From Haliotis rufescens (lineage: Eukaryota): 64,000 bases of DNA. Shown here piece by piece: positions 12,691-64,000 of this stretch (position 1 is the first letter of the stretch; each line of letters opens with the position of its first letter). The translations under genes and the position numbers were made by a program. The stretch lies in NCBI RefSeq assembly GCF_023055435.1, contig NW_025963835.1, forward strand, positions 2,418,001-2,482,000, written 5' to 3'. The notes under the pieces are model-generated. The model saw nothing but the letters and a program-made list of their open reading frames with translations. It searched no databases and was not told where the DNA came from.

Positions 12691-12894
12691 CATGACCGAG
12701 TGACCAAGACTGTGATGGCAACCTTCAAGTGGCAAATAAGGTTTGTCATTATTGTATCCCATAAACATACGTGTAGGTTATCACGAGGCAATTTGATTGT
12801 ATGCTTGAATTGAGGGACTTCATGTAATTCCTTAGGTCTTTTTATGTACCCTTTTCAGATTTTCGTGTGTTTTTGTTCTAGTTATTTAAAGTTT

Positions 12895-13300
12895 ATTTTA
12901 AAAACATCGAAATATTTCTCGTGGATTCGATTATTTTCTCTTTGCTTCGATTATATTTTCGTAATTTCGATTATTTTATCGTAGTTTCGCTTATTTTCTT
13001 GTAATTTTAAGTTTATTTTAAAAACTCGAAATTTCGAGTTTTTTCTCGCACTTCGAATATTTTCTCGGTATCGTTTCAATTAATTCTCTCGAAAATTCGA
13101 GTATTATAAATAAACTTGACATAACAAGAAAATAATGGAAATAATATGAAACAACGAGAAAATAATCGAAATAACAAGAAAATATTCAAAGGAACGAGAA
13201 AAAACTCTTTATTTCTAAAATAAATAAAAATGAAACAACAAGAAAAAAATCGAAGTAATGAGAGAGTACTCGAAATTTCGAGATAAAATTGTAATAACGT
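12895..13300. mobile_element. Foldback-like inverted-repeat element in intron 1. Homologs at about 30345-30670 and 55195-55530
   Basis: Tandem subrepeats of about 20 bp (aatttcgattattttctcg) followed by their reverse complements (cgagaaaataatcgaa). Confidence 0.7.
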
Positions 13301-16300
13301 GAAATTGTGATTTAGAACAAAATACATTAAAGCTACATGTACAAAACTGGCACCATTGGGACTTCGTACATAATAGATCGCGGGCTCGGTTGTAGTTAAC
13401 CATGGTCATACTATAGTCCCCGTTGAACGTTAATCATGTTTAAAATATTTTTTTTCGACGAAATGTAATTTGATTTATCTTTCAACAGGACTCAACGAAA
13501 TATGATGGCATCGAATGTTATTCTCATGGTAACTGCCGTGTTGCATGTGGTGTATGGTCAAACTGGTAGGTAAACGTAATGCTTACATACAGGTTCAACA
13601 GTCTTAATTTCAAATAAGAGGTGGTGGTATACACGTTCAGATGAAACCTTATATTTTAGGAAATGACATGAGTGGTTTATTTTAAAAGTGACAATTAATA
13701 ATTGTTAAATATTAAATGATTCCCATCTGTACAAAGGTATCTTTGAGCATACTCTGTATCAGCCCCATTGGGAATCCAGGACCCACTTGCACAAAGCCAT
13801 CTTAGCGCTAAGATTATCTTAAGCTATGTTGAAGTACATGTACAGGGGATTCCAGGTAAGAAGGTTCCAGCAAATGAGCCAGTCAAATGAATCACGTGGT
13901 CAAACTTTGTGACTTGGTTAATTGCGTGTTTTATAGTCTAGACTCTATTATTTACAGTCTGTCGTCATATAGCGGCGTTAAACATCAAAGAAATAAAAAA
14001 AACCATGAAAAAATAAGATCCATGGATTCCCTACAATATAATGAGATAACTCGGTTATATGCGAACAGGGCCGTGTGTGGATTTCAAAGACATTCCTGAG
14101 GTCGTCAGGCGAAACCCGAACATCGCAACCCAGGTTGGAGGAGCCACAATAAATGACAGAACGCTCCCTGATGGGTGGTACGGCGCCGCTAACTATGCAC
14201 TTGAGGAGAGTGCCCCAGGGTTCCTCCGCTGCGGATCACTGTTCCCGATATGGCGACAAAGTAAGTTTCCTTTCACACACATTGCTTACTTTATAAAGAG
14301 ATTAGTATTCAAATATTTTTCATCCGGGGCGCTCTATAACTCAGCATTTATGTGAATGACAAAGCCCAATGGGTATTTATACTCTGCTCGTCGAAATATA
14401 GTCCAAACAAATTCGTAGAATCCCAAACTCAACTTATGGCGTCTAAAATTCTCAATTTCTTAGGTACTCTAAAGCAAGTAAATGTTGTTCAAATTTTACG
14501 GAAAGACACATTTTGTTTAAAACTCAGCTTTTCATTTGAGGTTTTACCATAAAAGCTCTGGTTAAGTCATTCCAGAAATTTCATAGGAGACATTCAGAGG
14601 AATATAATAATGTAACAGGTCGCTTGTCATCATGATGCGCGATGCTATCCCAAACGATGACATTTACATCGAGTTTTCACACCTCCTTTCTCACTTTTAT
14701 TCACCTTTTGATGACACGTATGTGGGAAGCGGGTCCTTCCCGAAGAGAAGATATTTACCTGGTGACACGATTGATTTCAGTGATCCATCCATGTAATTTC
14801 AACACTAATGTGCCTTTTTCGACGTATTTGATGTTCTTTAGTGCTAAAAGTTCCAAGGTTGGTTATGAGAATCTGATAGAAATTTTAAAACGTTTTACTT
14901 ATGTCTTATACCTCCGTCCTTTAGAGAAAAACATCCAGGTTCTGAAAAGTATACCTATAAGACAGCAATGTTTAATGCAAACGTAAGAATATTAGCCAAA
15001 GACAAAACAAATGATAGCCACTTCAATTAACAATTCAATATTTATTTAATCATAATGTAATAACTCTTTCCTAAAGGTATTTCTGGAACAACAGCAACCA
15101 TGTGTATTCAAGGTCCATCTAACACATGCTCGAATCCGTTTACGGTAAAAGTCGAAGACTGCAATGGCTACACAGTCTACAATCTGAAGGCATCGCCTAT
15201 TCATCAGAGCTCCTACTGTTTCCGTAAGCTTTTAGATGTCTTAGTTTCTCCCTTCAGCTTGTCATTAAAATGGAATGTAAAGAAGTGACAAATCTGAAAT
15301 AGGAATCTTCATTACTAAAGAAATCTTCACCATTGAGGAAAAGGTGGTCCAGTGACCTGTGCAGAGTTGTGCCCCTTTGTACTGCCAGGATTGGCTGATC
15401 GCCATGTTTAGTCTTGTTAAACGTTATGTTAAATCCATTTCAGTCATTTGATTCTTTCTAGTTCATAAAAAAAGATGCTACAGAGGTATCTTACAATTCT
15501 ACCATTCTCGAGCATCTACAGAACAATAATATATTCATGTTAATTATGTTTAAATCGTGAATAACTTTCACTAATTTCATTTTAACAGGTGAGATCACTC
15601 CCAGTGAGTATATATTTCATACACTTTGTTGTATTTTGTAGTATTTAATGTTTTGTTTCTTAACAATTGATAAATGACGACCCGCCTCCGTGCTGTAGTG
15701 AACATAGCGTCTGCTCGGAGAGCAGAAGGTCGGTGGTTCAATCCCTGGCTCCGTCACATCCAAATTCGTTGAAAGATTGTTCTTGTACTTACGCTGCCTG
15801 GTGTTCGGCATTAGGATGATATAGCAATAGCAAGGACTTTTCGAGCTCAGGCGCAGTATAATAGTCTGAATGGGATATCCTTGTAACTGAAAGAAAGAAA
15901 GAAAGATGGACAGACAGGCAGAGATGTACAAGCATGCCACATGAGTAAACTCCCTACACATCACTTCACCTAAAGGTAGCGTGTGGTTAACTAGCCACTT
16001 AATGACAACAGTCTGTCAATAACAGAATAGTAGACACAAAGTATATAAGGCGGTGTAAACTTGTCAAAAGGGAGTTCACCCATATATCAACAATTATTCA
16101 GTATTATGCAATAGTGATGTATTTCTGGATAGATTGCTTGACTTACTTGTTTTCATACCAGACTCGCCAACCTACAGTCCCAAGCCAACTGTCGTCCCTG
16201 ATACTACTGATACAAGTTTCGACAACAGTGACCTCCTTTTCCGCTGTTCTTTTCCCCCTTCGTCCAACCAAAGACTGTTCCACCAAACCACGTGGTATGT

Positions 16301-17875
16301 CAACGACGTCGTTGTACACCAGCACCCACCTATGCTAATGGACACTGCCTACTTTGACAACACAGGGATCACTCAAGCGAAGCTTAGCGCAGAGGGAATA
16401 ACACAAATCGGGTTCAATGTGAGTCACACGCAGCTTTTTATGACGTCTAAACACTTTGATAGTCGGTTATAATACGATTTCTTTGTCTGGAAACAGTAGA
16501 CACTATACAATAGTCACAATATGTACAATACTCGGTGTTATATAAAGCTGAACATTCACCAATCAGACTCAAAATAGACAACCATTCGTATAACAATATC
16601 TTCAGTCAAATCAAGTCAAATAAGATTACAATATTTGTAACTCAAATAGTAAGATTCAGTTTTATAAAAAAAAGGTGCTTTTGGAGTTAGGTGTGTGTTT
16701 TATATGTCGATGAATCTTAAGCGTGGGTCAATTACTGGCACAATATCATACTTACTTTACCTCTGTATTTTCATGCCAATGAAGTATTCTTTACATAACT
16801 AATGATTTCCATTTGTAGATAACATGTGAGGTTCGAGCTATGTACGGTGTCAGTATGCCTCCAGGTCCCACAGCTAGTTCCGATCCTTTTTATGTCGGAT
16901 TTGAGGTAAGATGACATAGTTCTTTTCGTATCTTATCCCATCTTATTTCATTGCAGAGAGTTTTACGTTTCATAACACCCTGTATTGGTATTTCAAATCA
17001 TTCCAATTTCGGGATATCAACACTATCATTAGAAATCTAATGACACCATGATGATTCAGAGGTATAGTTTAAGGTAGTATTACTTTTACTAATCTGGTCA
17101 GTTTCATGTGTTGTTAATGTATATACGCTGCTACGTTTGTCTTCCGCCTTGCTGTTGCTGGAATGTTGCTAAAAGCTGCGTAAGACCCCACTTACTGCTT
17201 TTATTTAATCAGTGCTAAAAGCTGAGGTAATAGAGGCCTAAACCTACATTCCTACTTAATGAACTAATAACGTCGAACCACCAGAGAATAACTAGAAATA
17301 TCTGCCGAAACAGAGTGAGTGAGTTAAAATGTAACTGATATCTAGGTTGTAAAAGGTAAAATAGTAATACACATTTTATGAATGCAGACTGAATATCAGT
17401 GATGACGCCACGTGGTTACATATTTTAAAACATTCGTTTTACACAGATCCTAACCAAAGAAATAACGATCAAGCAAGGTGAGACGGGACAGGTTCGAGTG
17501 CGAGCCACGGCGCCTTTCCGTTGCGGAAACCTGTCCGAGACGTTTTCATCTTTTTGTTCCATGCCAATAGAGATACCAACTGCTGACTCAACAAAAGGGT
17601 TTTCCCAGGAAGATTGCGCCATTTCCATACCTTATACACAGTGGAACCAACCTGTATCTGTTACTGTACATGGAACTATAACACCAGAATATGGCAGAGG
17701 ACGACTGGATTCTCTACTAGTTCTGAGGACCCCTGCAGCAAGCCTGCTATTTCCCTATTGGGCCAACCATACTATTGGAACAGTAAAGGTAAGATAGTTT
17801 TAGACACCAACCACAAAGAGTCGTAATCGTTAGATTACACTTTCAACATCTTCAGTTGAATCTATTATATAAATA

Positions 17876-18008
17876 GGGGCGGTGGGGTAGCCTAGTGGTT
17901 AAAGCGTTCGCTCGTCTATTGACATGGTTACGTGTGAGGCAGATCGATTGTGTCTTCCCTCGAGATTTTGCTGGATGATTGCTAAAAGTGGCGCAAAGTC
18001 ATACTCAT
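17876..18008 (+). mobile_element. SINE family A, internally deleted. Homologs at about 35086 and 59958
   Basis: ggggcggtggggtagcctagtggttaaagcgttcgctcgtc...ttgctaaaagtggcg..atactca. Confidence 0.8.
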
Positions 18009-21000
18009 GGTTATCTAAATCAGTTTCAAATGTCTTGTTGAGTAACTATGATTACCTTTCCTTTCAGGTTACAGTATTAAAAGATACAGCTCTGGTTAGA
18101 AGCAAATCATGCTCCTCCAATAACGACCCATATGTATGGCAATTTGATAGGATGTGAGTGCACAAGGTTATTCAGACTTCCAATCTCCAGTTGGAGAGTT
18201 CATTATTGGCTTTAAGATTTTGGAACATTTCAGATAAATTCAAGATATTTTATATGTCATGCCTATAGTTGTCACTACCTGGGCATAACACATATCTTAG
18301 CTGTTACTTGTTTATATGATTGTAGATTTGGTTCTTTAAAGACCCCCATGAAATACCACTACAATCGCTGGCTACAATATAAAATACAATACAGTATTCA
18401 CTTTCTGAAGGGTTTGCTTGTTTTTTGTTTAACGTCGCACTCAGCAATATTGCAGCTATATGACGGCGGTCTGTAAATAATCGAGTCTGGACCAGACAAT
18501 CCAATAATTGACATCATGAGCATCGATCTACGCAATTTGGGATACCATAACATGCATCAACGAAGTTAAGGAACCTGACCACCGATCCCGTTAGGCGCCC
18601 CTTACGACAAGCATATTCGCCTTTTACGGCAAGCATGGGATGCTGAAGACCTATTCTACCCGGATCTTCACAAGTCAAGTACAAACAGGGCCCCATTCCC
18701 ATAACGACCATCCCATTCTCAGAGGCTTTGTCGAACGGAACTCTTTTTATACAGTGTGATGCTGACAATATTCCTTTAAAGAGCTGTAAATAATTAAAAC
18801 ATATGTGTAAAAAATTTATCAATTTGATTGACAAAACGTAACGTGATAATTCATTGTATCTCACAAAACGTATGTTTGACCTTTTGCAGAAAGCTGACTC
18901 TACAGATGGAGGGACGTTTTACATTATATAAACTGGCTAGTCAATTAATAGAGGTAATAATATATATCTTCTTTTCTCTATATAGATATAAAAACGATCA
19001 TTTATTCTCCATGACTGCATGACATGTATGTGTTGAAGCAGAAGTATGGTCACTATATCCATTATGCACAGGGAGAATAATGATGATGTTTACTCCCCTG
19101 CTCCAGAAACCAATCAACCAATACAACTACCTACCGCACCCCCAACAGACTTGTTAACATGCGCACGGTATTGAGGGGATAGAACGGAGACTTCCGGGCC
19201 GGAGTCAGTATACCGTGACTGAGTTGGGTATCCATGTTAAACTGCGGCATGGTATCACAGTAGGCTAGCACTATGAAACCTGCTAGTCCTGACTAGTATA
19301 GACAGCCACACATACACGTAAATGCGTGTCGCTATTTGGGAAAACAATCCTGAACCCAAAACCAACCCTCAACAATCAATCTTATATCACTAACAATTTA
19401 AATATTGCCTGTATCATCAATATGGTAATGTGCATTTACAGATACAGATCGATGTACAGAAATGTACCAGGAGAACTGGATACTGTAATTGTGGAGTAGC
19501 TGTTCAATCCGGGAAGACGGTGTTCTCCATCAATAGCTGCGATACCAGGTCATGGAGAATACAGCATCACGGCTGTGACGACTCTGACAACGCCATGGAA
19601 ATAAAAAAGAGATACAGTATTTATGATGTGCGTATAAATATAGTTGCATGTGTAGATAAATCATCATTTATGAAACTACAAACTGATATCACGGAATGTT
19701 GATATAAGCCTTTTTCACAATTAGCTATCATAATATGTATCTTTAAAATGAACATTGGGGCATACGGGATTCCTTCTAATAAAAGTCATTCCTAATTCTA
19801 GATTTCTAATTGTTACGAATCCATCACATATGACAGGATATCGTAGTTCTGACATTTGAACGTCACCGTTTGTCAAGTACACTGATATGTTGTCATTGTA
19901 GATATATTTGCCCACGGGGGCACGAGTACAAGTCCATACCTTCTCCATTGGGAACGGAAAGAACGCCTTAAATGTTTATCTTCCTGGCACGATCCTTGAT
20001 ACGTTGGCAAGTCGTGGTTTGTGCGGCCAGCTTTCTAACACACGCAGTGACGACTTAATCATGAGAGATGAGACACGGAGTAGCAACAGAAATACGTTCT
20101 TCAATTCCTGGAGGTAAGGTTCCTTCAATGCATGTCATGTTTTAACAATGGAAATATCTGAACAAAACGCGTAGTGTCCAACGTTGTTATCTTTGTCGAA
20201 TATGCGCATTTGACACATATATGCTACCATTTTTCAGAGTAGGGACGCACGACCTGTTTAACACCGATTATGTGAGGACACTTACAACGTTGCAACAGTC
20301 CCCAAAGTACTGCTCCTGTGAAGGCGGCAGAAACGTCACATGTTCTCTTGCGACGATGACCACTGTGGTCAGGCCAAATCATTACAAGGACGTTCCCTGT
20401 GCCATACACGGCAACAGGAAGAAGCGAATGGTGCCGAACAGGAACATCGGCCACCGATACAAAAGGGTATTCATTATATTTTTGTTTGTTTTTTATTCTA
20501 AGTTGAGGATCCCCCCAAATGCATATTATAAATGTTCATTACTTTGTTCCCTGAAGACAATTCTGCAAACACACGCAAGTTTCTGCAAACAATTAATTGT
20601 GATTTAAATTATTTAAACGGTTTGATTCACAATTTTTGCTATATGATTCAAATATAATCTCCTTTTGTCATTCCAGCAAACTTCAACAGAAGTGTGGAAC
20701 AACCAGACAGCGGCTGAATTCTGCAACAACCTGTTCGCAGCGTCCACGACCGTCCAGCTGTGCAGCAACGTCCCAGGAGTCGACATCAACAGCAGCCGCG
20801 ACGACTGCATCAGTGACATTATGGTAAATTATAATACTTTATCGAAGGGCCAAACATATAACAGTCTTTGGCAATACTAATGATAATGATGATAATAATA
20901 ATATGTCTCGTTGTTTAGGTGACCTTAATAATTAAAATTCAGAGTATTTCTTTCCTTACGCTAATAATGTCTGTGATCAAGTTCTGAATATATGACAATA

Positions 21001-21452
21001 CCATAACATTATGTGCATGTTTATAATGTTTGCAGCTCTCTGGCACAACTGACTTTCAAATGATGTCTATCGGCTCAGTGCGTACTTCCTGTGAGACGGA
21101 AGTATTTCTCAACCCCGATCTTTGGGTAACTGACCCCAACAACCCAGGGGCCCCTACTGTGTTAGACACGATCACCAACAACGTCTGTCCCAACGACTGT
21201 AGCAACAGAGGCACCTGCAACAAAGGTATATCTCACCACGCGTAAACTCAAGGGAGTTTATTGTTGAAATCATTTAATTTTATACACTATTGATGCCGTT
21301 GCGATGTTGTTGTTGTTGTTGTTGTGGTTGCAGTAGATTCCGAGCCAAGAATTCACTGGATATTGGCGCAACTATAGGTCATTATGTAAAGCTATTTTAC
21401 GACAAACCTCTTACTTAATCTAATACCAGTGAATAAACATTAGACTAAATAA

Positions 21453-21938
21453 AGCTGAAAGGATCGTTGTTGACACAGGTACTATAGAAATGTACCCTTG
21501 CCAAAATCAAAATACAGAAACGTAACTGGTTCCCTTAACGGTAGACGAGTCCATATTCCCCAACCCGAAACCGACACTGGTTCATGTTGTAGATCCGGTT
21601 CGTCTGATTACGGGTGCATGCGTGCATCGCGGAACATTAGACTATCGTTCGAACGTCACTATATGATACGCTGGAATGCAGCTTAAGAATATAATCGAAA
21701 AGTTCGTCCTGACGAACGCCCACTTCCATGATGAATTTAACCGCTGTTTGGCATACAGGAAGTGACGAATATCTAATGAACCGGTTACGCGCATTGCACC
21801 CTGCGGCCCTGCGGCGGAATGGACTCACGCTAGGGCACGTTTCTGTACTTTGAATTTGGCTAGAGTACATTTCTGTATACAGAAACGTACCTCGGGTACA
21901 TTTGTGTTGTAAATGTGCCGAGAACGGCCCCTTCAGCC
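21453..21938. mobile_element. Long-TIR MITE in intron 15, possibly Kolobok-like. Homologs at 38571-39048 and 63582 to beyond 64000
   Basis: Termini gctgaaggggtcgttgtcgacaca (copy 2) and tgtgccgagaacggccccttcagcc. Inverted arms exceed 100 bp and carry gtacgtttctgtatacagaaa subrepeats. The right end abuts TTAA. Confidence 0.75.
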
Positions 21939-24900
21939 TTAATAAACATGTATTAATAAATAGAGTAAGGTAAGTGAGCACAATAAGGATGATATGGATC
22001 CAACATTTTCAGGACTGTGCATCTGCAGTGCCGGATTTGGCAGTGCTGACTGTTCAGTGGACTTGACCCAACCACCTGTTCTGGACGAGGCCGAGGACAA
22101 CGGTCACTGCGACCTGGCTACCAGGAACTGCCAGATGTTGACAGTGTTTGGATTGACTTAATATCTCTTGAACTGCTTACTTAGGCTGAGCAGAGTATTC
22201 AACTTTTAATAATGATATTGCTAGTGGGCATGTAAACGTAGGTGATAGTTTGTAGTACCATTGAATAAGAATATGCCTGTCAATAGTTAAGCAGTTGAGC
22301 GGTCTGAAGGCTACAGCTTTTGACAATCGCTACAGATAAGTAAAGGTGTATTAAGCACTTCAGCAAGTGATCCAGCTGGATTAACGCCGCCTTTCCAGTA
22401 ATGTACTACCCGAAAGAAGTTGAATAAGACCGGATTTATTCAATGACAATTAATAATATGTCAGATCATGGCAAATTAACTATTCTATGAAATAATCGTG
22501 TGTTCTGGTAGTCCGGACTGATGCTGGTTTTATATTTTTTACATGGCTGTAGGCTCAGAGACATTATACTGGATAGTCCTTGTCCCCTTAATTCCGAGTG
22601 GGTAACAACAAGTACCACCTTTGGGTATGGTTTGGGATCGAAACACCGACCTGTCGCTCTCCGGGTAGATGCCCTACCCACCAGCCACGGACACGATCCA
22701 CACGGGAATACTTGTACATGTTTTATACGTTCTTGTAGGTGGGCAATGGTGGATCCCTTAATGAGCCGGATACCCAGGTATCAGATGGTACTGAGCGGAG
22801 CTTGAGTGAAGTGGGATGCCCTGTAAGGGTGGACGCACCCAGGGGCATTGTCACAGCCTACAACATCTCCGTGGCCAACATTGACAACATCTACAGCGAG
22901 AGTGTCGAAGTTCTGGTATATGATAGCACGTGTGTGACTGTTGATCACGAGTCCAAAATCTGGATCGTAAGGGTAAGCCATAGACTATGTAGACTTTTCA
23001 AATTAACGCTTTTATTATTATTCAGTAAATATAATGCCGAGGTATAACCACGAATGCGCCAATCGTTCTGTCGATCTCTTTGAATTTCTCCTTTAATCTC
23101 TTCTAAAATTAATTTACACTGATAAATACAAAATAACAAGTCAACTAGAACACAATTCTGGTAAGACCGGGGGCAAAATTATATTTTTCCGGTACTTTTA
23201 TATCTAATTATTTCGTCCACGAATTATACCTCCATCCCCTAACCCCATATTAACATAAAAGCCTTTATTATTTGATCAAACAAATGAATATAGAGATTAC
23301 CTCAACCCTGACACAAACCGCGAAGGTCAACTTGAAGTGAGTGATTGAGTGGGTGAAGGAGTGAGTTTCCCTCCGCTTTTAGCAATGTTCCAGCAATATT
23401 CACACATTGTACCCATGTCGGGAATCGAACCCGGATCTTTGGAATTATTTGATCAGACAAATGAGTGTAGAGATTACCTCAACCCCGACGCTAACCCCGA
23501 AAGCCAACTAGAAGTTCAACATAATCAGTCAGTTCGGAAGAACAGATTAAACCCCAAAATGAAAGGATTAATATTCAGGACATTTAGATTACATTGTTTG
23601 CATTGGTAACTGTTCAGTACATTACCATACTACGAATTATGTTCTTGTCAGCGATCAATAAACTGAAAGTGTGCATTTTATGTATCAACAGAATGGATAC
23701 ACAGTGCAAAACGGCGTGTGCATCAGTAGAGACAGCTCAAGTAAGTGTCTTCAGATATCTTGGTCACAAAATGTTGCCATCAGCTGCAATTTCGTCCATT
23801 AGCAGAATCTATATTAACTGAAAGTCTTAGTCCAGTTCAATCAGAGGGATGCGTTAGTGAGATTTAAGATGTAAATTGCGTCCAAACATAACTTATTCCA
23901 CTGTGATCTCACATGAGCATCATATTTTAAGCCCCATTACTGACGCTTTGTATGAGTGAGGTTTACTAGTGAGGTTTATGAAAAGTTAATCCGGAATAAG
24001 GATTATCAATAACATGTTATTTTGGGAAAGAAAATTTGGACCACTATTGAGAGTGATTCGGTTCCATTGATTTATATACTGTTTACTTGGTAATAATATT
24101 TGTTTACCTTTATTACAAAATGTTACTTCCCTTTCACAGTCGAACATCTCTAATAAACGTTTTCCACACACAGGCGGCCCTGACGACACTACCACAACCC
24201 GATCGACGCCGACATCAAAACCGATCATAGACGTAACTGATTCAGTTGTGATACCAAATAGCACAGGCGCCAACTGCAAAATCACCATGTCCTATGTGAC
24301 ACTCCTTGCCTCCCTTATTTCTGGTGTCCTCTCACTGGCTTTGCGTGACTTCTGAACTCCCCCATTTCCCCTATGCGCTCAATGCTTTTTCTGAGTATAT
24401 GATAGGCTTCAGCTGGACTTGTATAACAAAAGCACCCATACAACTTCGCAATCTTCAAGCTCATTGTTCACCGGTCTATATAGGAGTTGCACTTGGGAGA
24501 GATATGGTTTATTCAGTGCAATGAAGAACACAATTATGAAGCACAGATTAATACTAAGTAGTAAAATATTAAAGATATAATTTGACAGTTTGTCAATTTT
24601 GAAGCACAGATTGATATCAATAAGTAAAGAATTAAAGATAAATATAACAGTTTGTCTAAAGTGGCTGCATTGCTTGAAGTCTCAAGACTATTGACATATT
24701 TATACATGGGTGCATTACGTAGACTTCTGAACCTATCCAGGGACCTTATACAGTCGATCTATATCCGAGTAGGCGATAGGCTAAATACTAAGCTTGAACT
24801 AGACTCGTTTAAGACAAGTATCTATACAACCTGCAGGCCAATCTTTACAATCTCATTCTTCGCGGATGATATTTGTTTGTTGACATTTGAATTGGACAAA

Positions 24901-28891: not shown

Positions 28892-29038
28892 TGAGTATGT
28901 ACTGTGTATGTGTGAGTATGTACTGTGTATGTGTAAGTACTGTGTGTGTAAGTATGTACTGTGTATGTGTAAGTACTGTATGTGTGAGTATGTACTGTGT
29001 ATGTGTAAGTACTGTGTGTGTGAGTATGTACTGTGTAC
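28892..29038. repeat. Minisatellite, same family as 9766-10278
   Basis: tgagtatgtactgtgtatgtg repeats immediately before duplication unit 2. Confidence 0.95.
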
Positions 29039-38439: not shown

Positions 38440-38473
<34 letters not shown>

Positions 38474-48690: not shown

Positions 48691-48829
48691 TACTCAAAGC
48701 AGAAAGGGTAGCCCCTGTACCTGTAGAAACAGTCCGGGACTGCAATACCTCAATATGTATATTTTAATATGTTCCGTATGCAATGTTTTTTTGAGGCAGG
48801 ATAGAATAAATTATATGGCTGTCTGTCTT

Positions 48830-53930: not shown

Positions 53931-54003
53931 GTTCGTTTTGGAAGTTCAGCATCTCAATATTGTTTTCTCACTAAACTTCAGATGGTATTTGATTTTTTAT
54001 TTT

Positions 54004-54097
54004 AGTGAGTGGGTGAATCAGTGAGTGAGTGAGTGAGTGAGTGAATCAGTGAGTGAGTGAGTGAGTGAGTGAGTGAGTGAGTGAGTGAGTGAATGAG
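54004..54097. repeat. (GAGT)n microsatellite. Homologs at about 11549-11621 and 29111-29140
   Basis: Direct reading. Confidence 0.95.
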
Positions 54098-55113
54098 CCG
54101 GTGGGTGGGTGTTTGAGTGAGCGAGACCTAAGATATATCTATGGTCTTCACGTTTCGTGACAAATGCCCAATGGATCATATGACATTCATCGTGTGATAT
54201 ATAGTTGTATACTAAGTTTAAAACACAAATGTTTTGAAAGAATTGAACTTTGTATGTATGTAAGCTATATGAACATGATGATATATGCTATGCTTTTCTT
54301 TCTGCAACGTTTGTCCGCTAAAACATGAATCTATAGCAAGCTATATATTTAATTTGAGTGAAATAATTTGCGCAGGCTACCAATAAAACTTTCGCTGAAA
54401 ACCATGAGAAAAAACGCCATTCTTCATCTCCAACTGAAGAACAGAGAGTTATTTAAACACAGCTCATTTAAAAGGTCCAGTTCGTGTTAGGTTTCGCCTT
54501 TCTAATGCTTGACTTTTCAGGCGGTGAGGTCCAAGATTATTGCACTTATATAGCGACATCTGCGTGTGCGTGTGCGTGTGCGTGCGCTCACGCGCGCGTG
54601 TGTGTGTGTCTGCTTGTACTAGACCGAACTGATGCCGATTTATAGTGCTAGCCCACTGAGATACCATGCCACAGTTTAACATGAATACCCAATTCAGACT
54701 ACAGTATACAAGCGCCTGTATATACCAAAGCCTATGATTCATTCATTGTTAATAGTGTTCTTAGTGAAGAGATTCATGACGCACCTTCTACAAGGAAGTA
54801 GATATACCAATGAAATTTTGTTTACCTCGTAACTTCCAGTAACATGGTCTGATCTGTCATATCGAAAGGTTATATATATATATATTCCTTTAGCACCAGC
54901 AATGATAATGATGTGGTGTGATTATATTGCGACGAATCAAACGTGGCCACGCTCAAACAGCCAAACGGCCACAAACGAAACTTGCGAAATCCGCTTATTT
55001 GACCTTGAACAAACTTCCCCCTTGTGAGCTATATAAGTAGTAGCTTCATCAGTCTTGGTATCACAACTCATGACCGAGTGACCAAGACTGTGCTGGCAAC
55101 CTTCAAGTGGCAA

Positions 55114-58100
55114 ATGAGGTTTGTCATTATTGTATCCCATAAACATACGTGTAGGTTATCACGAGGCAAATTGATTATATACTTGAATGGAGGGACTATT
55201 TCTCGTTTATGCGATTATTTTCTCGTTGTTCGATTATTGTTTCGTAATTTCGATTATTTTCTCGCAATTTCGATTATTTTCTCGTAATTTCGATTATTTT
55301 CTTGTTATTTTAAGTATATTTCAAAAACTCGAAATTTCGAGTTTTTTCACGTTTCTACGAATATTTTCTCGTCACTTCAATTAATTCTCTCGAAATTCTT
55401 GACATAAAAAAATAATTGAAATTACGTTAAAATAATCAAAATAACGAGAAAATATTCGAAGCAACCAGAAACATTTCGAAATGCCGATTTTTAAAAGAAA
55501 AACTTGAAATAACGAGAAAATTATTTCTAGAAAATGATATGAGAAATTTATTTTGAATTATCTTTCGACAGGAATCACCGAATAATGATGGCATGGAATG
55601 TTATACTCATGGCAACTGCCGTTTTGCATGTGGTGTGTTTTCAAACTGGTAGGTAAACGTAGTTTCTGCATACATGTTCAACAGTCTCAATATCAAATGA
55701 GAGGTGGTGGCATACGTTCTGATGAAACCCTATATTATCGGAAATGACATGAGTGGTTTATTTGCAAGTGACAATTAATAATTGTTAAATATTAAATGAT
55801 TCCCATCTGTACAAAGGTATCTTTAAGCATACAGTGTATCAACACCATGGGGAATCCAGGACCCACTTGCACAAAGCCATCTTAGCGGTAAGATTATCTT
55901 AAGCTATGTTGATGTATAGGCGTTACTATCATCTTAGCAATAAGATCGCTTTGTACAAGTAGGCCCTGGTAAGAATGGATCACTTTGTCACCTCGCTTTT
56001 TATGTCAGGAGAGCAGTGTGTGGATTTTCAAGACATTCCTGAGGTCGCTAGACGAAACCCGAACATCGCAACCCAGGTTGGAGGAGCCACAATAAATGAC
56101 AGAAGGCTCCCTCAAGGGTGGTACGGCGCCGGTAACTATGTACTTGAGGATAGTGCCCCTGGGTTCCTCCGCTGCGGATCACTGTACCCGATATGGCGAA
56201 AAAGTGAGTTTACTTTCACACACATTGCTCACTTTATTAAGAGATTGGTTTTATTGGTTTGTCGTTTTACGCTGCACTCAGCAATATTCCAGCTATATGA
56301 CGGCGGTCTGTAAATATTAGAGACTGGACCAGACAATCCAGTGGTCGACATCATGGGCATCGATCCATGTAATTGGGATCGATGACGTGCTTCAAACCAA
56401 GTCATCGAGCCTGATCATGACCACCTGATCCCGTTAGTCGCCTCTTACGACAAGCATAGTCGCCTTTTACGGGCATGGGTTGCTTGAGACCTAGTCTATC
56501 CCGCATCTGAGATTGGTATTCCATTCTTGTCACGTGATATAGTCAAAAGAAATTCGTAGAATCCCAAACTCAACTTATAACGTCTACATTTCCCAATTTC
56601 TTAGGTGCTTTTCAAATTATTCACACATTTTGTATACAACTTAGTTTTTCTTCGCTTTTCATTCACGTTTTTACCCAAAACGCTTTGGTAAAGTCATTCC
56701 AGAAATGTCACAGGAGACATTCAGATGAATATAATAATATTACAGGTCGCATTTCTTCATGATGCGCGATGCTATCTTATATGATGACATTTACATTTCA
56801 CACCTTTTTTTCTCACTTTCATTCTCCCTTTGATGACACTTATGTGGGAAGCGGGTCCTTCCCGAAGAGAAGATATTTACCTGGTGACACGATTCATTTC
56901 AGTGATCCATCCATGTAATTCCATCACTAATGTGCCCTTTTCGACGTATTTGATGTTGTTTAGTGCGCAAAGTTCAACTGTTGGTCATATGAATCTGATA
57001 GCAATTTTAAAACATTTTCCTTATGTCTTAAACCTCCGTCCTTTGGGGAAAAAACATCCAGGTTCTGAAAAATATACCTAAAAGACAGCAATGTTAAAAG
57101 CAAACGTAATAATATTAGCCAAAGACAAAACAAATGATAGTTACTTCAATTAACAAATCAATATTTATTATATTGTAATGTAGTAACTTTTCTTACAGGT
57201 ATTTCTGGAACAACAGCAACCATGTGTATTCAAGATACATCTAACACATGTTCGAATCAGTTTACCGTACAAGTTGAGGACTGCAACGGCTACACAGTCT
57301 ACTATCTGATAGCATCACCTATTCATCAGAGCTCCTACTGTTTCCGTAAGCTTTTGGATGTCTTATTTTACTTGCTTCTCCTCTCAACTTGTCATTAAAA
57401 TGGAATGTAAAGAAGTGTCAAAGAGGAAATAGGAATCTTGATTACTAAAGAAATCTTCACCATAGGGGAGAAGGTGGTCCAGTGACCTGTGCAGAGTTGT
57501 GCCCCTTTGTACTGCCAGGATTGGCTGATCGCCATGTTTAGCCTTGTTCGAAGTTATGTTAAATCCATTTCAGTCATTTGATTCTTTCTAATTCATAAAA
57601 AAGATGTTACAGATGTATCTTACAATTCTACCTAGCATCTAAAGAACAATGATATATTCATGTTAATTATGTTTCTATTGTGAATAACTTTCACTAATTT
57701 CATTTTTACAGGTGAGATCACTCCCAGTGAGTATATATTTCATACACTTTGGTGTATTTTATAGTATTTAATGTTTTGTTTCAGTTAATAAATAACGACC
57801 CGCCTCCGTGCTTTAGTGAATATAGCGTCTGCTCGGAGAGCGGAAGGCCGGTGGTTCAATGCCCTGGCTCCGTCACATCCAATTCGTTGAAAGATGGTTC
57901 TTGTACTTACGCTGCCTGGCGCTCGGCATTAGGATGATATAGCAATAGCAAGGACTTGCCAGCTCAGGCGCAGTATATGGTCTGAATGGGAAATCCTTGT
58001 AACTGAAAGAAAGAAAGATGCACAGACAGGCAGAGATGTGCACGCATGCTACATGAGTAAACTAATCGTGAACCGATGCTGAACTCTCCTTCACCCCACT

Positions 58101-61100
58101 TCAGAATAGTAGACACAAATTTAAAGTATAAGGCGGTATAAACCTCAATGTCAAAGGGAGTTCACCGATATATCAACAATTATTCAGTATTATGCAATAG
58201 TGATGTATTTCAGGATAGATTGCTTGACTTACTTGTTTTCATACCAGACTCGCCAACCTACAGTCCCAAGCCAACTGTCGTCCCTGATATTACTGATACA
58301 AGTATCGACAAAAGTGACCTACTTTTCCGCTGTACGTTTCCCCTTTCGTCCGACCAAAGACTGTTCCACCAGACCACGTGGTATGTCAACGGCGTCGTTG
58401 TACACCAGCACCAACCTATGATAATGTTCAATGCCTACATTGACAACACAGAGATCACTCAAGCGAAGCTTAGCGCAGAGGGAATAACACAAATCGGGTT
58501 CAATGTAAGTCACACGCAGCTTTTCATGACGTCTAAACACTTTGATAGTCGGTTATAATACGATTTCTTTGTCTAGAAAGAGTAGACACTATACAATAGT
58601 CACAGCATGTACAATACTCGGTGTTATAAAAAGCTGAACATTCACAAATCAGACTCAAAATAGACAACCATTCCTGTAACAATATCTTTAGTCAAATCAA
58701 GTCAAATAAGATTACAATATTTGTAACTCAAATAGTAAGATTAAGTTTTATATAAAAAGGTGCTTTTGAAGTTAGATGTGTGTTTTTATATGTCGATATA
58801 TCTTAAGTGTAGGTCAATTACTGGCACAATATCATACTTTTCATGTCAGTGAAGTATTCTTTACATAACTAATGCTAAAAATAGAATTTCCATTTGTAGA
58901 TAACATGTGAGGTTCGATCTATGTACGGTGCAAGTTTGCCCTCAGGTCCAACAGCTAGTTCCGATCCTTTTTATGTCGGATTTGAGGTAAGATGACATAA
59001 ATCTTTTCGTATCTAATCCCATCTTATTCCATTGCAGATAGTTTACGTTTCATAACACCCTGTATTGGTATTTCAAATCATTCCAATTTCGGGATATCAA
59101 CACTATCATTAGGAATCTAATGACACCATGATAATTCACAGGTAAAGTTTAAGGTAGTATTACTTTTACTAATCTGATCAGTTTCATGTGTTGTTAATGT
59201 ATATACGCTGTTACGTTTGTCTCCCGCCTTGCTGTTGCTGGAATGTTGCTAAAGGCTGCGTAAGACCTCACTTACTACTTTTATTTAATCAGTGCTAAAA
59301 GCTGAGGTAATAGAGGCCTAAACCTAAATTCCTACTTAATGAACTAATAACGTCGAACCACCAGAGAATAACTAGAAATATCTGCCGAAACAGAGTGAGT
59401 GACTTAAAATATAACTGATATCATATAGGTTGTAAAAGGTAAAATAGTGATAAACATTTTATGAATGCAACACAATATCAGTGATGACACCACGTGGTTA
59501 CATATTTTATAACATATGTTTTACGTAGATCCTAACCAAAGAAATAACGATCAAGCAAGGTGAGACGGGACAGGTTCGAGTGCGAGCCACGGCGCCTTTC
59601 CGATGCGGAAACCTGTCCGAGACGTTCTCATCTTTTTGTTCCATGCCAATAGAGATACCAACTGCTAACTCAAAAAACGGGTTTTCCCAGGACGATTGCG
59701 CCATTTCCATACCTTATACACAGTGGAACCAACCAGTATTTGTTACTGTACATGGAACTATAACACCAGAATATGGCAGAGGACGACTGGATTCTCTACT
59801 AGTTCTGAGGACCCCTGCAGCAAGCCTGCTATTTCCCTATTGGGCCAACCATACTATTGGAACAGTAAAGGTAAGATAGTTTTAGACACCAACCACAAAG
59901 AGTCGTAATCGTTAGATTACACTTGCAACATCTTTAGTTGAATCTATTATATAAATAGGGGCGGTGGGGTAGCCTAGTGCTTAAATCGTTCGCTCGTCTA
60001 TTGACATGGTTACGTGTGAGGCAGATCGATTGTGTCTTCCCTCGATATTTTGCTGGATGATTGCTAAAAGTGGCGTAAAATCATACTCATGGTTATCTAA
60101 ATCAGTTTCAAATGTCTTGTTAAGTAACTATGATTTCCTTTCCTTTCAGGTTACAGTATTAAAAGATACAGCTCTGGTTAGAAGCAAATCATGCTCCTCC
60201 AATAACGACCCATATGTACGTCAATTTGATAGGATGTGAGTGCACAAGGTTATTCAGACTTCCAATCTCCAGTTGGAGAGTTCATTATTGGCTTTAAGAT
60301 TTTGGAACATTTCAGAGAAATTCAAGATATTTTATATGTCATGCGTATAGTTGTCACTACCTGGGCATAACACATATCTTAGCTGTTACTTGTTTATATG
60401 ATTGTAGATTATAGTCTTTACAGACCCCCATGAAATACCACTACAATCGCTGGCTACAGTATAAAATACAATACAGTATTCACTTTCTAAAGGGTTTGTT
60501 TGTACGTCGCACTCAGCAATATTGCAGCTATATGACGGCGGTCTGTAAATAATCGAGTGTGGACCAGACAATCCAATAATTGACATCATTAGCAGCGATC
60601 TACGCAATTTTGGATACCATAACATGCATCAACGAAGTTAAGGAACCTGACCACCCGATCCCGTTAGTCGCCTCTTACGACAAGCATAGTCACCTTTTAC
60701 GGCAAGCATGGGATGCTGAAGACCTATTCTACCCGGATCTTCACGGGCCACTTACTGAAGGAGACGTAGCGACAAGTCATCAAGTACAAACAGGGCCCCA
60801 TTCCCATAACGACCATCCCATTCTCAGAGGCTTTGTCGAACGGAACTCTTTTTATACAGTGTGATGCTGACAATATTTCTTTAAAGAGCTGTAAATAATT
60901 AAAACATATGTTTAATTAAAACTTATCAATTTGATTGACAAAACGTAACGTGATAATTCATTGTATCTCACAAAACGTATGTTTGACCTTTTTGCAGAAA
61001 GCTGACTCTACAGATGGAGGGACGTTTTACATTATATAAACTGGCTAGTCAATTAATAGAGGTAACAATATATATCTTCTTTTCTCTATATAGATATAAA

Positions 61101-63333
61101 AACGATCATTTATTCTCCATGAATCAATGACATGTATGTGTTGAAGCAGAAGTATGGTCACTATATCCATTATGCACAGGGAGAATAATGATGATGTTTA
61201 CTCCCCTGCTCCAGAAACCAATCAACCCATACAACTACCAACCGCACCCCCAACAGACTTGTGAACATGCGCACGGTATTGAGGGGATAGAACGGAGACT
61301 TCCGGGCCGGAGTCAGTATACCGTGACTGAGTTGGGTATCCATGTTAAACTGCGGCATGGTATCACAGTAGGCTAGCACTATAAACCCTGCTAGTCCTGA
61401 CTAGTACAGACAGCGACACATACACGTAAATGCGTGTCGCTGTTTGGGAAAACAATCCTGAACCCAAAACCAACCCTCAACAATCAATCTTATATCACTA
61501 ACAATTTAAATATTGCCTGTATCATCAATATGGTAATGTGCATTTACAGATACAGATCGATGTACAGAAATGTACCAGGAGAACTGGATACTGTAATTGT
61601 GGGGTAGCTGTTCAATCCGGGAAGACGGTGTTCTCCATCAATAGCTGCGATACCAGGTCATGGAGAATACAGCATCACGGCTGTGACGACTCTGACAACG
61701 CCATGGAAATAAAAAAGAGATACAGTATTTATGATGTGCGTATAAATATAGTTGCATGTGTAGATAAATCATCATTTATGAAACTACAAACTGATATCAC
61801 GGAATGTTGATATAAGCCTTTTTCACAATTAGCTATCATAATATGTATCTTTAAAATGAACATTGGGGCATACGGGATTCCTTCTAATAAAAGTCATTCC
61901 TAAATCTAGATTTCTAATTGTTACGAATCCATCACATATGACAGGATATCGTAGTTCTGACATTTGAACGTCACCGTTTGTCAAGTACACTGATATGTTG
62001 TCATTGTAGATATATTTGCCCACGGGGGCACGAGTACAAGTCCATACCTTCTCCATTGGGAACGGAAAGAACGCCTTAAATGTTTATCTTCCTGGCACGA
62101 TCCTTGATACGTTGGCAAGTCGTGGTTTGTGCGGCCAGCTCTCTAACACACGCAGTGACGACTTAATCATGAGAGATGAGACATGGAGCAGCAACAGAAA
62201 TACGTTCATCAATTCCTGGAGGTAAGGTTCCTTGAATGCATTTTATGTTTTAACTATGGAAATTTCTGAACAAAACGCGTATTGTCCAACGTGGTTATCT
62301 TTGTCGAATATGCGCATTTGACACATATATGCTACCATTTTTCAGAGTAGGGACGCACGACCTGTTTAACACCGATTATGTGAGGACACTTACAACGTTG
62401 CAACAGTCCCCAAAGTACTGCTCCTGTGAAGGCGGCAGAAACGTCACATGTTCTCTTTCGACGATGACCACTGTGGTCAGGCCAAATCATTACAAGGACG
62501 TTCCCTGTGCTATACACGGCAACAGGAAGAAGCGAATGGTGCCGAACAGGAACATCGGCCACCGATACAAAAGGGTATTCATTATATTTTTGTTTGTTTT
62601 TTATTCTAAGTTGAGGATCCCCCCAAATGCATATTATAAATGTTCATTACTTTGTTCCCTGAAGACAATTCTGCAAACACACGCAAGTTTCTGCATACAA
62701 TTAATTGTGATTTAAATTATTTAAACGGTTTGATTCACAATTTTTGCTATATGATTCAAATATAATCTCCTTTTGTAATTCCAGCAAACTTCAACAGAAG
62801 TGTGGAACAACCAGACAGCGGCTGAATTCTGCAACAACCTGTTCGCAGCGTCCACGACCGTCCAGCTGTGCAGCAACGTCACAGGAGTCGACATCAACAG
62901 CAGCCGCGACGACTGCATCAGTGACATTATGGTAAATTATAATACTTTATCGAAGGGCCAAACATATAACAGTCTTTGGCAATACTAATCATAATGATGA
63001 TAATAATAATATGGCTCGTTGTTTAGGTGACCTTAATAATTAAAATTCAGAGTATTTCTTTCCTTACGCTAATAATGTCTGTGATCAAGTTCTGAATATA
63101 TGACAATACCATAACATTATGTGCATATTTATAATGTTTGCAGCTCTCTGGCACAACTGACTTTCAAATGATGTCTATCGGCTCAGTGCGTACTTCCTGT
63201 GAGACGGAAGTATTTCTCAACCCCGATCTTTGGGTAACTGACCCCAACAACCCAGGGGCCCCTACTGTGTTAGACACGATCACCAACAACGTCTGTCCCA
63301 ACGACTGTAGCAACAGAGGCACCTGCAACAAAG
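55114..63333 (+). CDS. VWDE: VWDE-like gene copy 3, 3'-partial and continuing beyond the window. Exons 55114-55118, 55572-55648, 56009-56203, 57199-57345, 57712-57726, 58248-58504, 58900-58986, 59529-59870, 60150-60235, 60998-61061, 61550-61735, 62010-62221, 62346-62574, 62785-62931, 63144-63333
   Basis: Exon-for-exon homology with copies 1 and 2. Frame is open and splice sites are intact through the first half of the EGF domain. The start could alternatively be the ATG at 55585. Confidence 0.85.
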
Positions 63334-63412
63334 GTATATCTCACCACGCGTAAACTCAAGGGAGTTTATTGTTGAAATCATTTAATTTTATACACTATTG
63401 ATGCCGTTGCGA

Positions 63413-63413
<1 letters not shown>

Positions 63414-63458
<45 letters not shown>

Positions 63459-63459
63459 G
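63414..63459. repeat. (GTT)n microsatellite. Homologs at about 21305 and 38441
   Basis: Direct reading. Length varies among the copies. Confidence 0.95.
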
Positions 63460-64000
63460 CAGTAGATTCCGAGCCAAGAATTCACTGGATATTGGCGCAA
63501 CTATAGGTCATTATGTAAAGCTATTTTACGACAAACCTCTTACTTAATCTAATACCAGTGAATAAACATTAGACTAAATAAAGCTGAAAGGATCGTTGTT
63601 GACACAGGTACTATAGAAATGTACCCCGGGTACGTTTCTGTATACAGAAATGTACCCTTGCCAAAATCAAAATACAGAAACGTAACTGGTTCCCTTAACG
63701 GTAGACGAGTCCATATTCCCCAACCCGAAACCGACACTGGTTCATGTTGTAGATCCGGTTCGTCTGATTACGCGTGCATGCGTGCATCGCGGAAAATTAG
63801 ACTAACGTTCGTACGTCACTATATGATACGCTGGAATGCAGCTTAAGAAGATAATCGAAAAGTTCCTCCTGACGAACGCCTACTTCCATGATGAATTTAA
63901 CCGCTGTTTGGCACACAGGAAGTGACGAATATCTAATGAACCGGTTACGCGCATTGCACCCTGCGGCCCTGCGGCGGAATGGATTCACGTTAGGGCACGT

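What the first reader, a model, noticed from the sequence alone, without database searches (positions are those of the whole stretch)
12715..64000. Young tandem family of compact, probably GPI-anchored D8C-VWD-EGF surface proteins
Seen: at least three head-to-tail 19-exon genes encoding signal peptide, D8C-like, Ig-like, VWD, a single EGF, Thr-rich stalk and a terminal hydrophobic tail with no cytoplasmic domain. Known: vertebrate VWDE is secreted with many C-terminal EGF repeats, and the D8C/D10C module of uromodulin and GP2 acts as a decoy for bacterial adhesins. Inference: a lineage-specific, rapidly varying cell-surface recognition or decoy family (mucosal defence, gamete recognition or matrix). 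It combines copy-number change, mosaic recombination, anchored and anchorless forms, and processing sites.
Basis: partly seen in the sequence, partly recalled or inferred. Interest (0 to 1): 0.7.

Follow-up and report, generated by a model that had tools for sequence, protein, structure and literature searches.

The report
Abalone GPI-type VWDE-like tandem gene array
This is a run of four look-alike abalone genes (three intact, one broken) for a surface protein of a large, little-studied mollusc family; it is likely lipid-anchored and likely cut in two, and although mostly ordinary, its copies differ mainly on one predicted face of one domain, which could set what each copy binds.

Summary
The array is real. 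It holds four head-to-tail 19-exon genes, three starting in the window and one beyond it. Copies B, C and D are intact (about 960-980 aa). Copy A has a 112-nt deletion that stops it at 801 aa. RefSeq records name the host as red abalone and the black-abalone orthologues as VWDE-like.

The protein is a six-cysteine D10C fold (GP2 match, Z 16.4), two Ig-like domains, VWD, two furin-type sites, a helical domain, one EGF, another beta domain, a Ser/Thr stalk and a GPI-type tail. The last splice is seen in RNA contigs.

This compact, one-EGF, furin-site layout is the norm among mollusc relatives (71 of 131 are transmembrane). Only the GPI-type tail marks an abalone subclade.

The decoy glycan sites of GP2/UMOD are absent, dN/dS is 0.35-0.59, two VWD types predate the species split, and the anchorless form was seen in none of 4 laid runs. 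Mosaic exchange is confirmed.

One lead remains: differences between the two VWD types cluster on one predicted sheet face (17 of 33 positions versus 14 of 149).

The parts
12715..24355 (+). Copy A. Exons: 12715-12740, 13489-13565, 14069-14260, 15077-15223, 15589-15603, 16162-16418, 16819-16905, 17447-17788, 18068-18153, 18890-18953, 19442-19627, 19902-20113, 20238-20466, 20677-20823, 21036-21225, 22013-(22161 stop). Orphaned exons 22739-22972, 23692-23740 and 24174-24355 are still open. Truncated at 801 aa; VWD type X.
   Evidence: identical to P0001 / XP_048251910.1
22154..22161 (+). Junction of a 112-nt deletion in copy A (4-nt microhomology). It removes the last 46 nt of exon 16 and its splice donor, giving a stop at 22159-22161.
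   Evidence: contigs of 2 DNA-type and 2 RNA-type runs carry the undeleted form
30170..41898 (+). Copy B, intact, 981 aa from the first ATG, VWD type Y. Exons: 30170-30195, 30695-30771, 31113-31304, 32281-32427, 32807-32821, 33381-33637, 34030-34116, 34657-34998, 35291-35376, 35904-35967, 36543-36728, 36985-37199, 37341-37572, 37805-37951, 38168-38357, 39123-39313, 39963-40196, 40862-40910, 41690-41898.
   Evidence: splices 12-13, 14-15-16-17 and 18-19 seen in RNA-type contigs. RefSeq splits B into two partial models, P0005 and P0006.
31113..32427 (+). Exons 3-4 of B: six-cysteine D10C-fold domain with no N-glycosylation sequon
35291..37199 (+). Exons 9-12 of B: the VWD domain, an island of old divergence between types X (A, C) and Y (B, D). 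The types differ at 30-33 aa, and introns 9-11 are only 78-85% alike.
37341..37572 (+). Exon 13 of B: Cys-rich linker with two furin-type sites (RKKR and RYKR) 13 residues apart
   Evidence: a like site is present in 82 of 100 aligned relatives
41690..43178 (+). Last exon of B: Ser/Thr stalk, candidate omega site 29 residues from the end, 17-residue hydrophobic tail, stop at 41896-41898, and a likely 1.3-kb 3' UTR ending near AATAAA at 43173
55093..64000 (+). Copy C, exons 1-15. It continues beyond the window to extended position 66482 (contig C57 = window + 2,418,000). First ATG changed to CTG, later in-frame ATGs kept; intact with tail; VWD type X; 5' part closer to B/D than to A. Copy D (intact, 972 aa, VWD type Y) follows outside the window at extended 72437-83739.
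46120..48374 (+). 59-bp satellite (38 copies) that ends unit B. The same satellite begins at about 28700 after A and lies at extended 88519-88814 after D.
53010..53932 (+). 21-bp minisatellite that precedes unit C. Related arrays precede A (9767-10881), B (28892-29037) and D (extended 71099-71304).
48375..52423 (+). Decayed retroelement-like spacer after B, repeated at 90-94% after D (extended 88815-92724). The array is therefore a two-gene block present twice.
   Evidence: the LINE-like reading is my recall from ORF fragments, and Pfam gave no hit

Best explanation
These are four tandem abalone genes of the mollusc VWDE-like family whose intact copies encode a likely GPI-anchored, likely furin-cut two-chain surface glycoprotein that most likely serves as an epithelial coat or adhesion protein binding other proteins, rather than as a sugar decoy. 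SHOWN: the gene structure, splicing in related RNA contigs, the domain folds, the hydrophobic end without a cytoplasmic part, two dibasic sites, and mosaic exchange between copies under net purifying selection. INFERRED: (1) The signal peptide in exon 2 sends the chain to the ER, where the tail is swapped for GPI about 29 residues from the end. (2) A furin-type protease cuts twice after the VWD linker and drops a 13-residue peptide. (3) The outer chain (D10C-Ig-Ig-VWD, 22 Cys) is predicted to stay docked on the anchored chain (helical-EGF-beta-stalk, 16 Cys) by VWD/helical packing like a VWD-C8 assembly, probably without a disulfide, so it could be shed. (4) The array grew by unequal crossing-over: an old X/Y gene pair was doubled as a block and keeps being scrambled by gene conversion, except in the VWD exons. 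Copy A is a decaying by-product.
For: Gene models. RefSeq identity and orthologues. Splices and last exon. D10C: profile E 2.5e-25 to GP2 7p6r; VIA-align Z 16.4, rmsd 2.2 A over 115 residues, next row 6.1. VWD and the following region match mucin/VWF D assemblies (Foldseek E 5e-12). Model pLDDT is 84, with the furin linker (612-633) and stalk (904-947) disordered. Chain docking: score 0.82 against a best control of 0.01, runs agreeing in at least 81% of contacts, partner pLDDT at least 78. That mark was reached by 51 of 78 solved and 2 of 108 mismatched microbial pairs; VWD-C8 assemblies are solved, so the pass may reflect likeness. Tail; four older paralogues at 35-40% identity keep a similar terminal tail. 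Family context. Selection and mosaicism. Bivalve VWDE-like genes are reported in mantle, gill ciliary cells and hepatopancreas among adhesion/matrix genes (passages).
Against: No GPI or signal-peptide predictor could be run; the omega+2 residue is Asn, which by my recall is less usual than Ala/Gly/Ser. No tissue, ligand or localisation data exist for these genes. The RNA evidence comes from contigs with several percent substitutions (likely another abalone or paralogue), and the runs are only guessed to be RNA. The adhesion/coat role rests on family analogy. The one-face clustering of VWD differences is not explained by a plain structural role.
Confidence: 0.55

Rival explanations
1. The paralogues are specificity variants of a recognition protein (microbe, self/non-self or gamete). 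Selection keeps different VWD faces apart against gene conversion, and furin cleavage could expose or release that face.
For: B and C differ at 17 of 33 VWD positions in the predicted contact face against 14 of 149 elsewhere. The excess holds among equally variable family columns (17/28 vs 12/77, p 1e-5), and 0 of 181 mask shifts reach it. The partner helix changes at only 2 of 29 contact positions. Types X and Y predate the species split (B differs from black-abalone P0004 at 7 VWD residues and from neighbour C at 30), and P0002 is a third type. Precedent for a tandem GPI D10C cluster in defence: zebrafish omcins (PMC11415648 passages).
Against: dN/dS in that face is 0.55, and pN there (0.28) does not exceed VWD-wide pS (0.20; p 0.3). 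Synonymous sites and introns 9-11 are equally diverged, which insertion-blocked conversion would also give. The face is variable family-wide (entropy 3.0 vs 2.4). The test was made after seeing the model, and the face is a prediction. D10C of B and D is identical.
Confidence: 0.2
2. It works as a GP2/uromodulin-type decoy that presents a high-mannose glycan on D10C to bacterial lectins.
For: D10C fold and a GPI-type tail, as in the omcins.
Against: No N-x-S/T sequon lies in the D10C domain of any of the 4 copies. The GP2 N65 position holds Asp, and the UMOD N275-equivalent Asn is followed by Leu-Lys (Tyr in C). Among relatives the sequons occur in 1 of 71 and 0 of 71 rows. There is no room for the hairpin that shields the glycan, and no ZP polymer module. 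Glycan dependence is from PMC8930769 (passages).
Confidence: 0.05
3. The tail is a short type I transmembrane anchor, not a GPI signal.
For: 71 of 131 relatives have a transmembrane helix plus cytoplasmic tail, and the model draws the end as a helix.
Against: The best 19-residue hydropathy is only 1.8-1.9, with 3 residues after it and no basic stop-transfer cluster. Small-residue omega candidates sit at -29 in all 4 sequences tested from the array and its orthologue.
Confidence: 0.12
4. The four copies are really two genes: blocks A-B and C-D are two haplotypes wrongly placed in tandem by the assembly. This concerns copy number only.
For: A/C and B/D differ by only 0.5-3% over long middle stretches, and the whole block including the spacer is repeated. 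The black abalone cluster shows two models.
Against: A and C differ by 8-17% over their first ~3 kb, B and D by 5-12% at their 3' ends, and the spacers by 6-10%. D's 3' end follows C rather than B. No N lies between B and D.
Confidence: 0.15
5. Truncated copy A is a functional secreted (anchorless) isoform.
For: RefSeq models it as a coding gene, and it keeps all domains through the EGF.
Against: The stop cuts the post-EGF beta domain and leaves part of its cysteines unpaired. It lies upstream of two further splice junctions with no AATAAA before 23657, so decay of the mRNA is likely (inference). None of 4 laid runs has a contig with the deletion junction.
Confidence: 0.07

Closest known systems
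Mollusc VWDE-like proteins (Pfam D8C_UMOD PF23283, Ig_VWDE PF25776, VWD PF00094, Vwde PF26129), including RefSeq XP_071092648.1 and XP_071093244.1
   Same: Same order of domains, six-Cys N domain (six columns at 91-99% Cys in 71 rows), furin-type site (82 of 100), one EGF, membrane anchor; other tandem clusters lie in the same genome.
   Different: Most have a transmembrane helix and cytoplasmic tail (71 of 131) and DPH in the VWD (76 rows vs 11 DPY). This clade has a GPI-type end and DPY.
Vertebrate VWDE (blastema factor; PMC7390686, PMC9117669)
   Same: D10C (listed for VWDE in PMC8930769), VWD and EGF in one extracellular protein.
   Different: Described as secreted with EGF repeats of variable number. 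Here there is one EGF, a stalk and an anchor signal; orthology was not tested.
GP2 / uromodulin decoy module and zebrafish omcin cluster (PMC8930769, PMC11415648)
   Same: D10C fold; omcin5 is predicted GPI-anchored and sits in a young 15-gene cluster.
   Different: No ZP module, no hairpin, 6 instead of 10 Cys, and no glycan site at either FimH-binding position.
Mucin / VWF / FCGBP D assemblies (VWD-C8)
   Same: VWD fold followed by a helical module predicted to pack on it.
   Different: A single assembly, split by two furin-type sites, with NDPY instead of the GDPH seen in FCGBP (its self-cleavage role is recalled) and no TIL/E modules.
RGM / hemojuvelin (recalled)
   Same: GPI-anchored, VWD-type fold, protease-released soluble forms.
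   Different: Only a marginal sequence match (RGMB E 0.22) and a different architecture; an analogy, not kinship.

Membership tests
VWDE-like family (mollusc type) | VWD domain | tested here: met
   Pfam VWD 23.6-25.3 bits against a cut-off of 22.9; Foldseek to MUC2/VWF E 5e-12
VWDE-like family (mollusc type) | EGF domain after the VWD/helical region | tested here: met
   EGF_Teneurin 26.7 bits against a cut-off of 24.3 in P0004
VWDE-like family (mollusc type) | N-terminal D8C/D10C domain | tested here: met
   Fold and profile match to GP2/UMOD; local Pfam D8C_UMOD gave no hit on the single proteins
VWDE-like family (mollusc type) | Ig_VWDE and Vwde helical domains | tested here: inconclusive
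   Ig_VWDE only at E 0.02, below cut-off; PF26129 appears in precomputed hits and Atlas neighbours but not in my Pfam scans; the model shows the helical domain
VWDE-like family (mollusc type) | Full-length homology to named members | tested here: met
   553 representatives at E <= 1e-10; named relatives in Haliotis, Patella, Lottia and Dreissena
Vertebrate VWDE orthogroup | Secreted, multiple EGF repeats | tested here: not met
   One EGF and a terminal anchor signal
Vertebrate VWDE orthogroup | Orthology by tree | not tested
   No named vertebrate VWDE was placed in the tree
GP2/UMOD decoy module | D10C fold | tested here: met
   Z 16.4, rmsd 2.2 A, 115 residues to 7p6r_A
GP2/UMOD decoy module | Five D10C disulfides | tested here: not met
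   C2, C3, C9 and one of C6/C7 are replaced; six Cys remain, fitting loss of pairs C2-C9 and C3-C6 (pairing from PMC8930769)
GP2/UMOD decoy module | High-mannose site at the GP2 N65 or UMOD N275 position, plus the beta-hairpin | tested here: not met
   No sequon in the domain in 4 of 4 copies; the first Cys follows the signal peptide by about 5 residues
GP2/UMOD/omcin proteins | ZP module | tested here: not met
   The 964-aa model is accounted for by other domains, and Pfam finds no ZP at E <= 5
GPI-anchored proteins | Terminal hydrophobic stretch with no cytoplasmic tail, and a small-residue omega site upstream | tested here: met
   Rule-of-thumb scan only; last exon spliced in 4 of 4 runs
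GPI-anchored proteins | Predictor call or PI-PLC release | not testable with these tools
   No NetGPI/SignalP or bench data
Diversifying recognition families | omega above 1 on a binding surface | tested here: inconclusive
   Gene-wide 0.35-0.59; 0.55 in the clustered face, on few sequences

The most novel reading that the evidence does not exclude
Abalones have turned a transmembrane VWDE-like protein into a GPI-anchored, furin-split two-chain receptor whose paralogues carry alternative VWD faces, kept distinct across species against gene conversion: an undescribed variable recognition system in which cleavage lets the outer chain undock and expose or shed the variable face.
Probability: 0.17. 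Interest if true: 0.68.

Novelty: new variant of a known kind. Interest (0 to 1): 0.33.

Why it matters
Mollusc genomes hold many VWDE-like genes that appear in infection and tissue data sets with no mechanism attached. This work gives the family a concrete anatomy: a six-Cys D10C, a furin-split VWD/helical assembly and a transmembrane or GPI-type anchor. It shows that the decoy analogy fails at the glycan level. It also names a small test set, two VWD types differing on one predicted face, with which specificity can be tested directly. If the face is selected, this would be a new variable surface-recognition family in a farmed mollusc. If not, it is ordinary birth-and-death evolution.

Tried and rejected
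- No run was on record as RNA among the holders. The small-share runs were laid instead; they give no tissue or expression level.
- Exon-by-exon Pfam scans gave only sub-threshold hits. Single-sequence PDB searches missed D10C; family profiles found it.
- A whole-protein word search gave only 5 hits; the HMMER library search reached the family.
- The mixture-model tree did not finish, so FastTree was used. Its GPI label is a crude hydropathy rule; P0070 and P0124 are probably cut-off transmembrane proteins and P0017 is borderline.
- An apparent in-frame TGA in B exon 8 is out of frame.
- Gene-wide positive selection was rejected.
- No contig bridging copy A's deletion was seen, which is not proof of absence.
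- tblastn found no further copy in 20 kb upstream or 38 kb downstream, except an inverted exon-19 relic.
- Earlier scan notes: none by place or by words.
- Paper searches for a description of GPI-anchored or furin-cut VWDE-like proteins, or of these abalone genes, found none: (0 papers). The library lacks most subscription papers. Supplements were not opened; Supplementary Data 2 of PMC9117669 lists invertebrate VWDE architectures and could bear on novelty.


Full report
OBSERVATION. Self-comparison shows three long direct repeats of 85-94% identity in the window. Exon mapping gives copy B 19 exons with 18 GT-AG introns and an open frame of 981 aa. Copy A has the same exons, but a 112-nt deletion removes the end of exon 16 and its donor and gives a stop after 801 aa. 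Copy C runs off the window after exon 15. The window is G000:C57:2418001-2482000. Neighbouring stretches complete C and reveal a fourth intact copy D at extended positions 72437-83739. Searches of the genome with exons 8 and 15 give exactly four near-identical hits here, plus 7 and 14 more distant hits, several of them in clusters. My model of A is letter for letter RefSeq XP_048251910.1 of Haliotis rufescens. Its 90% cluster also holds two H. cracherodii proteins named VWDE-like (964 and 870 aa, both with the tail) and partial models of B, C and D.

EXPRESSION AND 3' END. Four runs guessed to be RNA (3 studies) were laid on B. All 4 show the joint 40910 to 41690 (GT..AG). Single contigs join exons 12-13 and 14-15-16-17. 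In 3 of the 4 runs the listed contigs continue past the stop to 43174-43179, next to an AATAAA at 43173; a contig end is only a weak hint of a transcript end. The contigs differ from B by several percent, so they probably come from a related abalone or a paralogue. On copy A, two DNA-type and two RNA-type runs all carry the undeleted exon 16, and no listed contig bridges the deletion.

ANATOMY. AlphaFold2 on P0004 with 76 sequences gives mean pLDDT 84, with residues 612-633 and 904-947 disordered. A family profile hits GP2 7p6r at E 2.5e-25 and the VWDs of FCGBP, VWF and mucins. The model of the N-terminal part matches 7p6r_A at Z 16.4 (rmsd 2.2 A, 115 residues; next row Z 6.1), and its second domain matches Ig/FN3 folds at Z about 6. 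In the alignment to GP2, C1, C4, C5, one of C6/C7, C8 and C10 are kept, while C2, C3 and C9 are replaced. That fits loss of the pairs C2-C9 and C3-C6 listed in PMC8930769 (passages). The same paper shows that FimH capture needs a high-mannose glycan at GP2 N65 or UMOD N275. None of the 4 copies has a sequon in this domain. Among relatives, the first site occurs in 1 of 71 rows and the second in 0 of 71. Two furin-type sites follow the VWD linker, with 22 Cys before and 16 after them. Folded as two chains, the VWD part and the helical+EGF part dock with score 0.82 against a best control of 0.01 (runs agree in at least 81% of contacts; partner pLDDT at least 78). That mark was reached by 51 of 78 solved and 2 of 108 mismatched microbial pairs, and likeness to solved VWD-C8 assemblies may explain the pass. 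The tail has a 17-residue hydrophobic run, three further residues and a small-residue omega candidate at -29. No GPI predictor was available.

FAMILY. HMMER finds 553 representatives at E <= 1e-10, and the listed Atlas neighbours by features are all VWDE-like, mostly mollusc where taxa are recorded (top score 0.88, a lead only). I examined the 160 proteins held and dropped 6 tenascin/teneurin-like rows. Of the 131 that align to query position 850 or beyond, a hydropathy rule transmembrane plus cytoplasmic tail, 48 unanchored or incomplete, and 12 GPI-like; four of the 12 are array members or orthologues and at least one is probably a cut-off helix. The six-Cys N domain and a furin-type site (82 of 100 rows) are family-wide. 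In a FastTree tree of 88 rows the array lies in a 7-row clade (support 98) of 6 GPI-like proteins and one fragment, all named Haliotis. Two Dreissena proteins with GPI-like ends lie elsewhere, so the switch seems to have happened more than once (inference).

ARRAY HISTORY. Each unit starts after a 21-bp minisatellite; A, B and D end in a 59-bp satellite. A 4-kb spacer after B recurs after D at 90-94%, so a two-gene block is present twice. Of 650 informative sites, 620 group A with C and B with D, but the remainder is clumped: 29 switches against a minimum of 49 in 10,000 permutations. A and C differ by 8-17% at the 5' end and about 1-3% in the middle; B and D differ by 0-1% at the 5' end and 5-12% at the 3' end. 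dN/dS over codons 14-818 is 0.35-0.59 for all 6 pairs. VWD exons 9-12 are an island of old divergence: X (A, C) and Y (B, D) differ at 30-33 residues, while B differs from black-abalone P0004 at 7. Synonymous sites and introns 9-11 are diverged as well. The X/Y pair therefore predates the species split, and only the last doubling is young. A false haplotype duplication is not excluded (about 15%), but at least two real paralogues remain.

THE ONE ODD POINT. After seeing the docking model, I asked where the X/Y differences fall. Seventeen of 33 VWD contact positions differ, against 14 of 149 others, and the partner differs at 2 of 29. The excess survives matching for family-wide variability (17/28 vs 12/77), and 0 of 181 circular shifts of the mask reach it. 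Alternating strand positions (488, 490, 494, 503, 507, 509) point to one sheet face. Against selection: dS is also raised there (dN/dS 0.55), pN does not significantly exceed domain-wide pS (p 0.3), and the face is variable across the family. This is a lead, not a result.

LITERATURE. I saw passages only. PMC8930769 lists VWDE among D10C proteins. PMC7390686 and PMC9117669 treat VWDE as an extracellular or secreted EGF-repeat protein of blastemas. PMC11415648 describes zebrafish omcins, a young cluster of D10C-ZP proteins with a predicted GPI anchor, linked to bacterial resistance. Bivalve studies mention VWDE genes in mantle (PMC4581086, PMC9641012), in gill ciliary and hepatopancreas cells during viral infection (10.64898/2026.05.15.723513), and as nine genes detected in the expression study of a parasitised oyster (PMC9679248); a shrimp study reports one in immature haemocytes. 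Nine searches showed no paper on these abalone genes or on GPI-type VWDE-like proteins. Furin consensus, GPI rules, GDPH self-cleavage and RGM biology are recalled, not taken from a call.

VERDICT. This is a real, mosaic tandem array of an abalone GPI-type subfamily of the known mollusc VWDE-like proteins. It works like an anchored, protease-split surface or matrix protein; it is not a member of the GP2/UMOD decoy class. Interest 0.33. The variable-face recognition reading has probability about 0.17 and would deserve about 0.68.

Noticed in passing
window 601-3776 (+): The 3' part of an inosine-uridine nucleoside hydrolase gene has two tandem look-alike exons (1844-1977, 134 nt; 2494-2636, 143 nt) of the same phase. 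Both match Pfam PF01156 positions about 153-192, so they are candidate mutually exclusive exons; the second fits the profile much better (43 vs 22 bits).
   Followed up: partly
extended 72437-83739 (G000:C57:2490437-2501739; loci L002-L003), + strand: Copy D, the fourth gene of the array, outside the window: intact, 972 aa, nearly identical to B in its 5' half and to C at its 3' end.
   Followed up: yes
extended 93121-93434 (G000:C57:2511121-2511434), - strand: Inverted, decayed relic of intron 18 and exon 19 (about 75% identity, with an in-frame stop), the trace of an older fifth copy.
   Followed up: partly
G000 C57:13.66-13.85 Mb (5 hits), C609:0.71-1.07 Mb (4 hits), C57:31.8 Mb (2 hits), C57:27.96 Mb, C523, C1: Further clusters of more distant paralogues of this family in the same genome.
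   Followed up: no
window 32807-32821 (and 15589-15603, 57712-57726): A 15-nt micro-exon between the D10C and first Ig domain, kept in all four copies.
   Followed up: no
window 55093-55095 and 56009-56012: Copy C has lost the exon-1 ATG (CTG) but keeps in-frame ATGs, and its exon-3 acceptor is shifted by 3 nt. RefSeq models only a 233-aa fragment here, and splits B and truncates D, so this locus is mis-annotated.
   Followed up: partly
window 33384-34997: RNA-type contigs retain introns 6 and 7 in several runs: pre-mRNA, intron retention or DNA carry-over.
   Followed up: no
window 41700-41800: The stalk length varies between copies through a 12-bp Thr/Pro/Ser repeat (46 aa in B, 37 aa in C and D).
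   Followed up: partly
P0012 (H. cracherodii, 3003 aa), P0022, P0024, P0040: Relatives with several family units in one predicted protein: either fused gene models of tandem arrays or true multi-unit forms.
   Followed up: no
window 4561-4761, 18418-18667, 31351-31602, 36107-36365, 49643-49807, 56245-56508, 60494-60740: Short interspersed repeats; those within copy B draw very high summed depth in the RNA-type runs, and their insertions differ between copies in introns 3, 9, 10 and 18.
   Followed up: no
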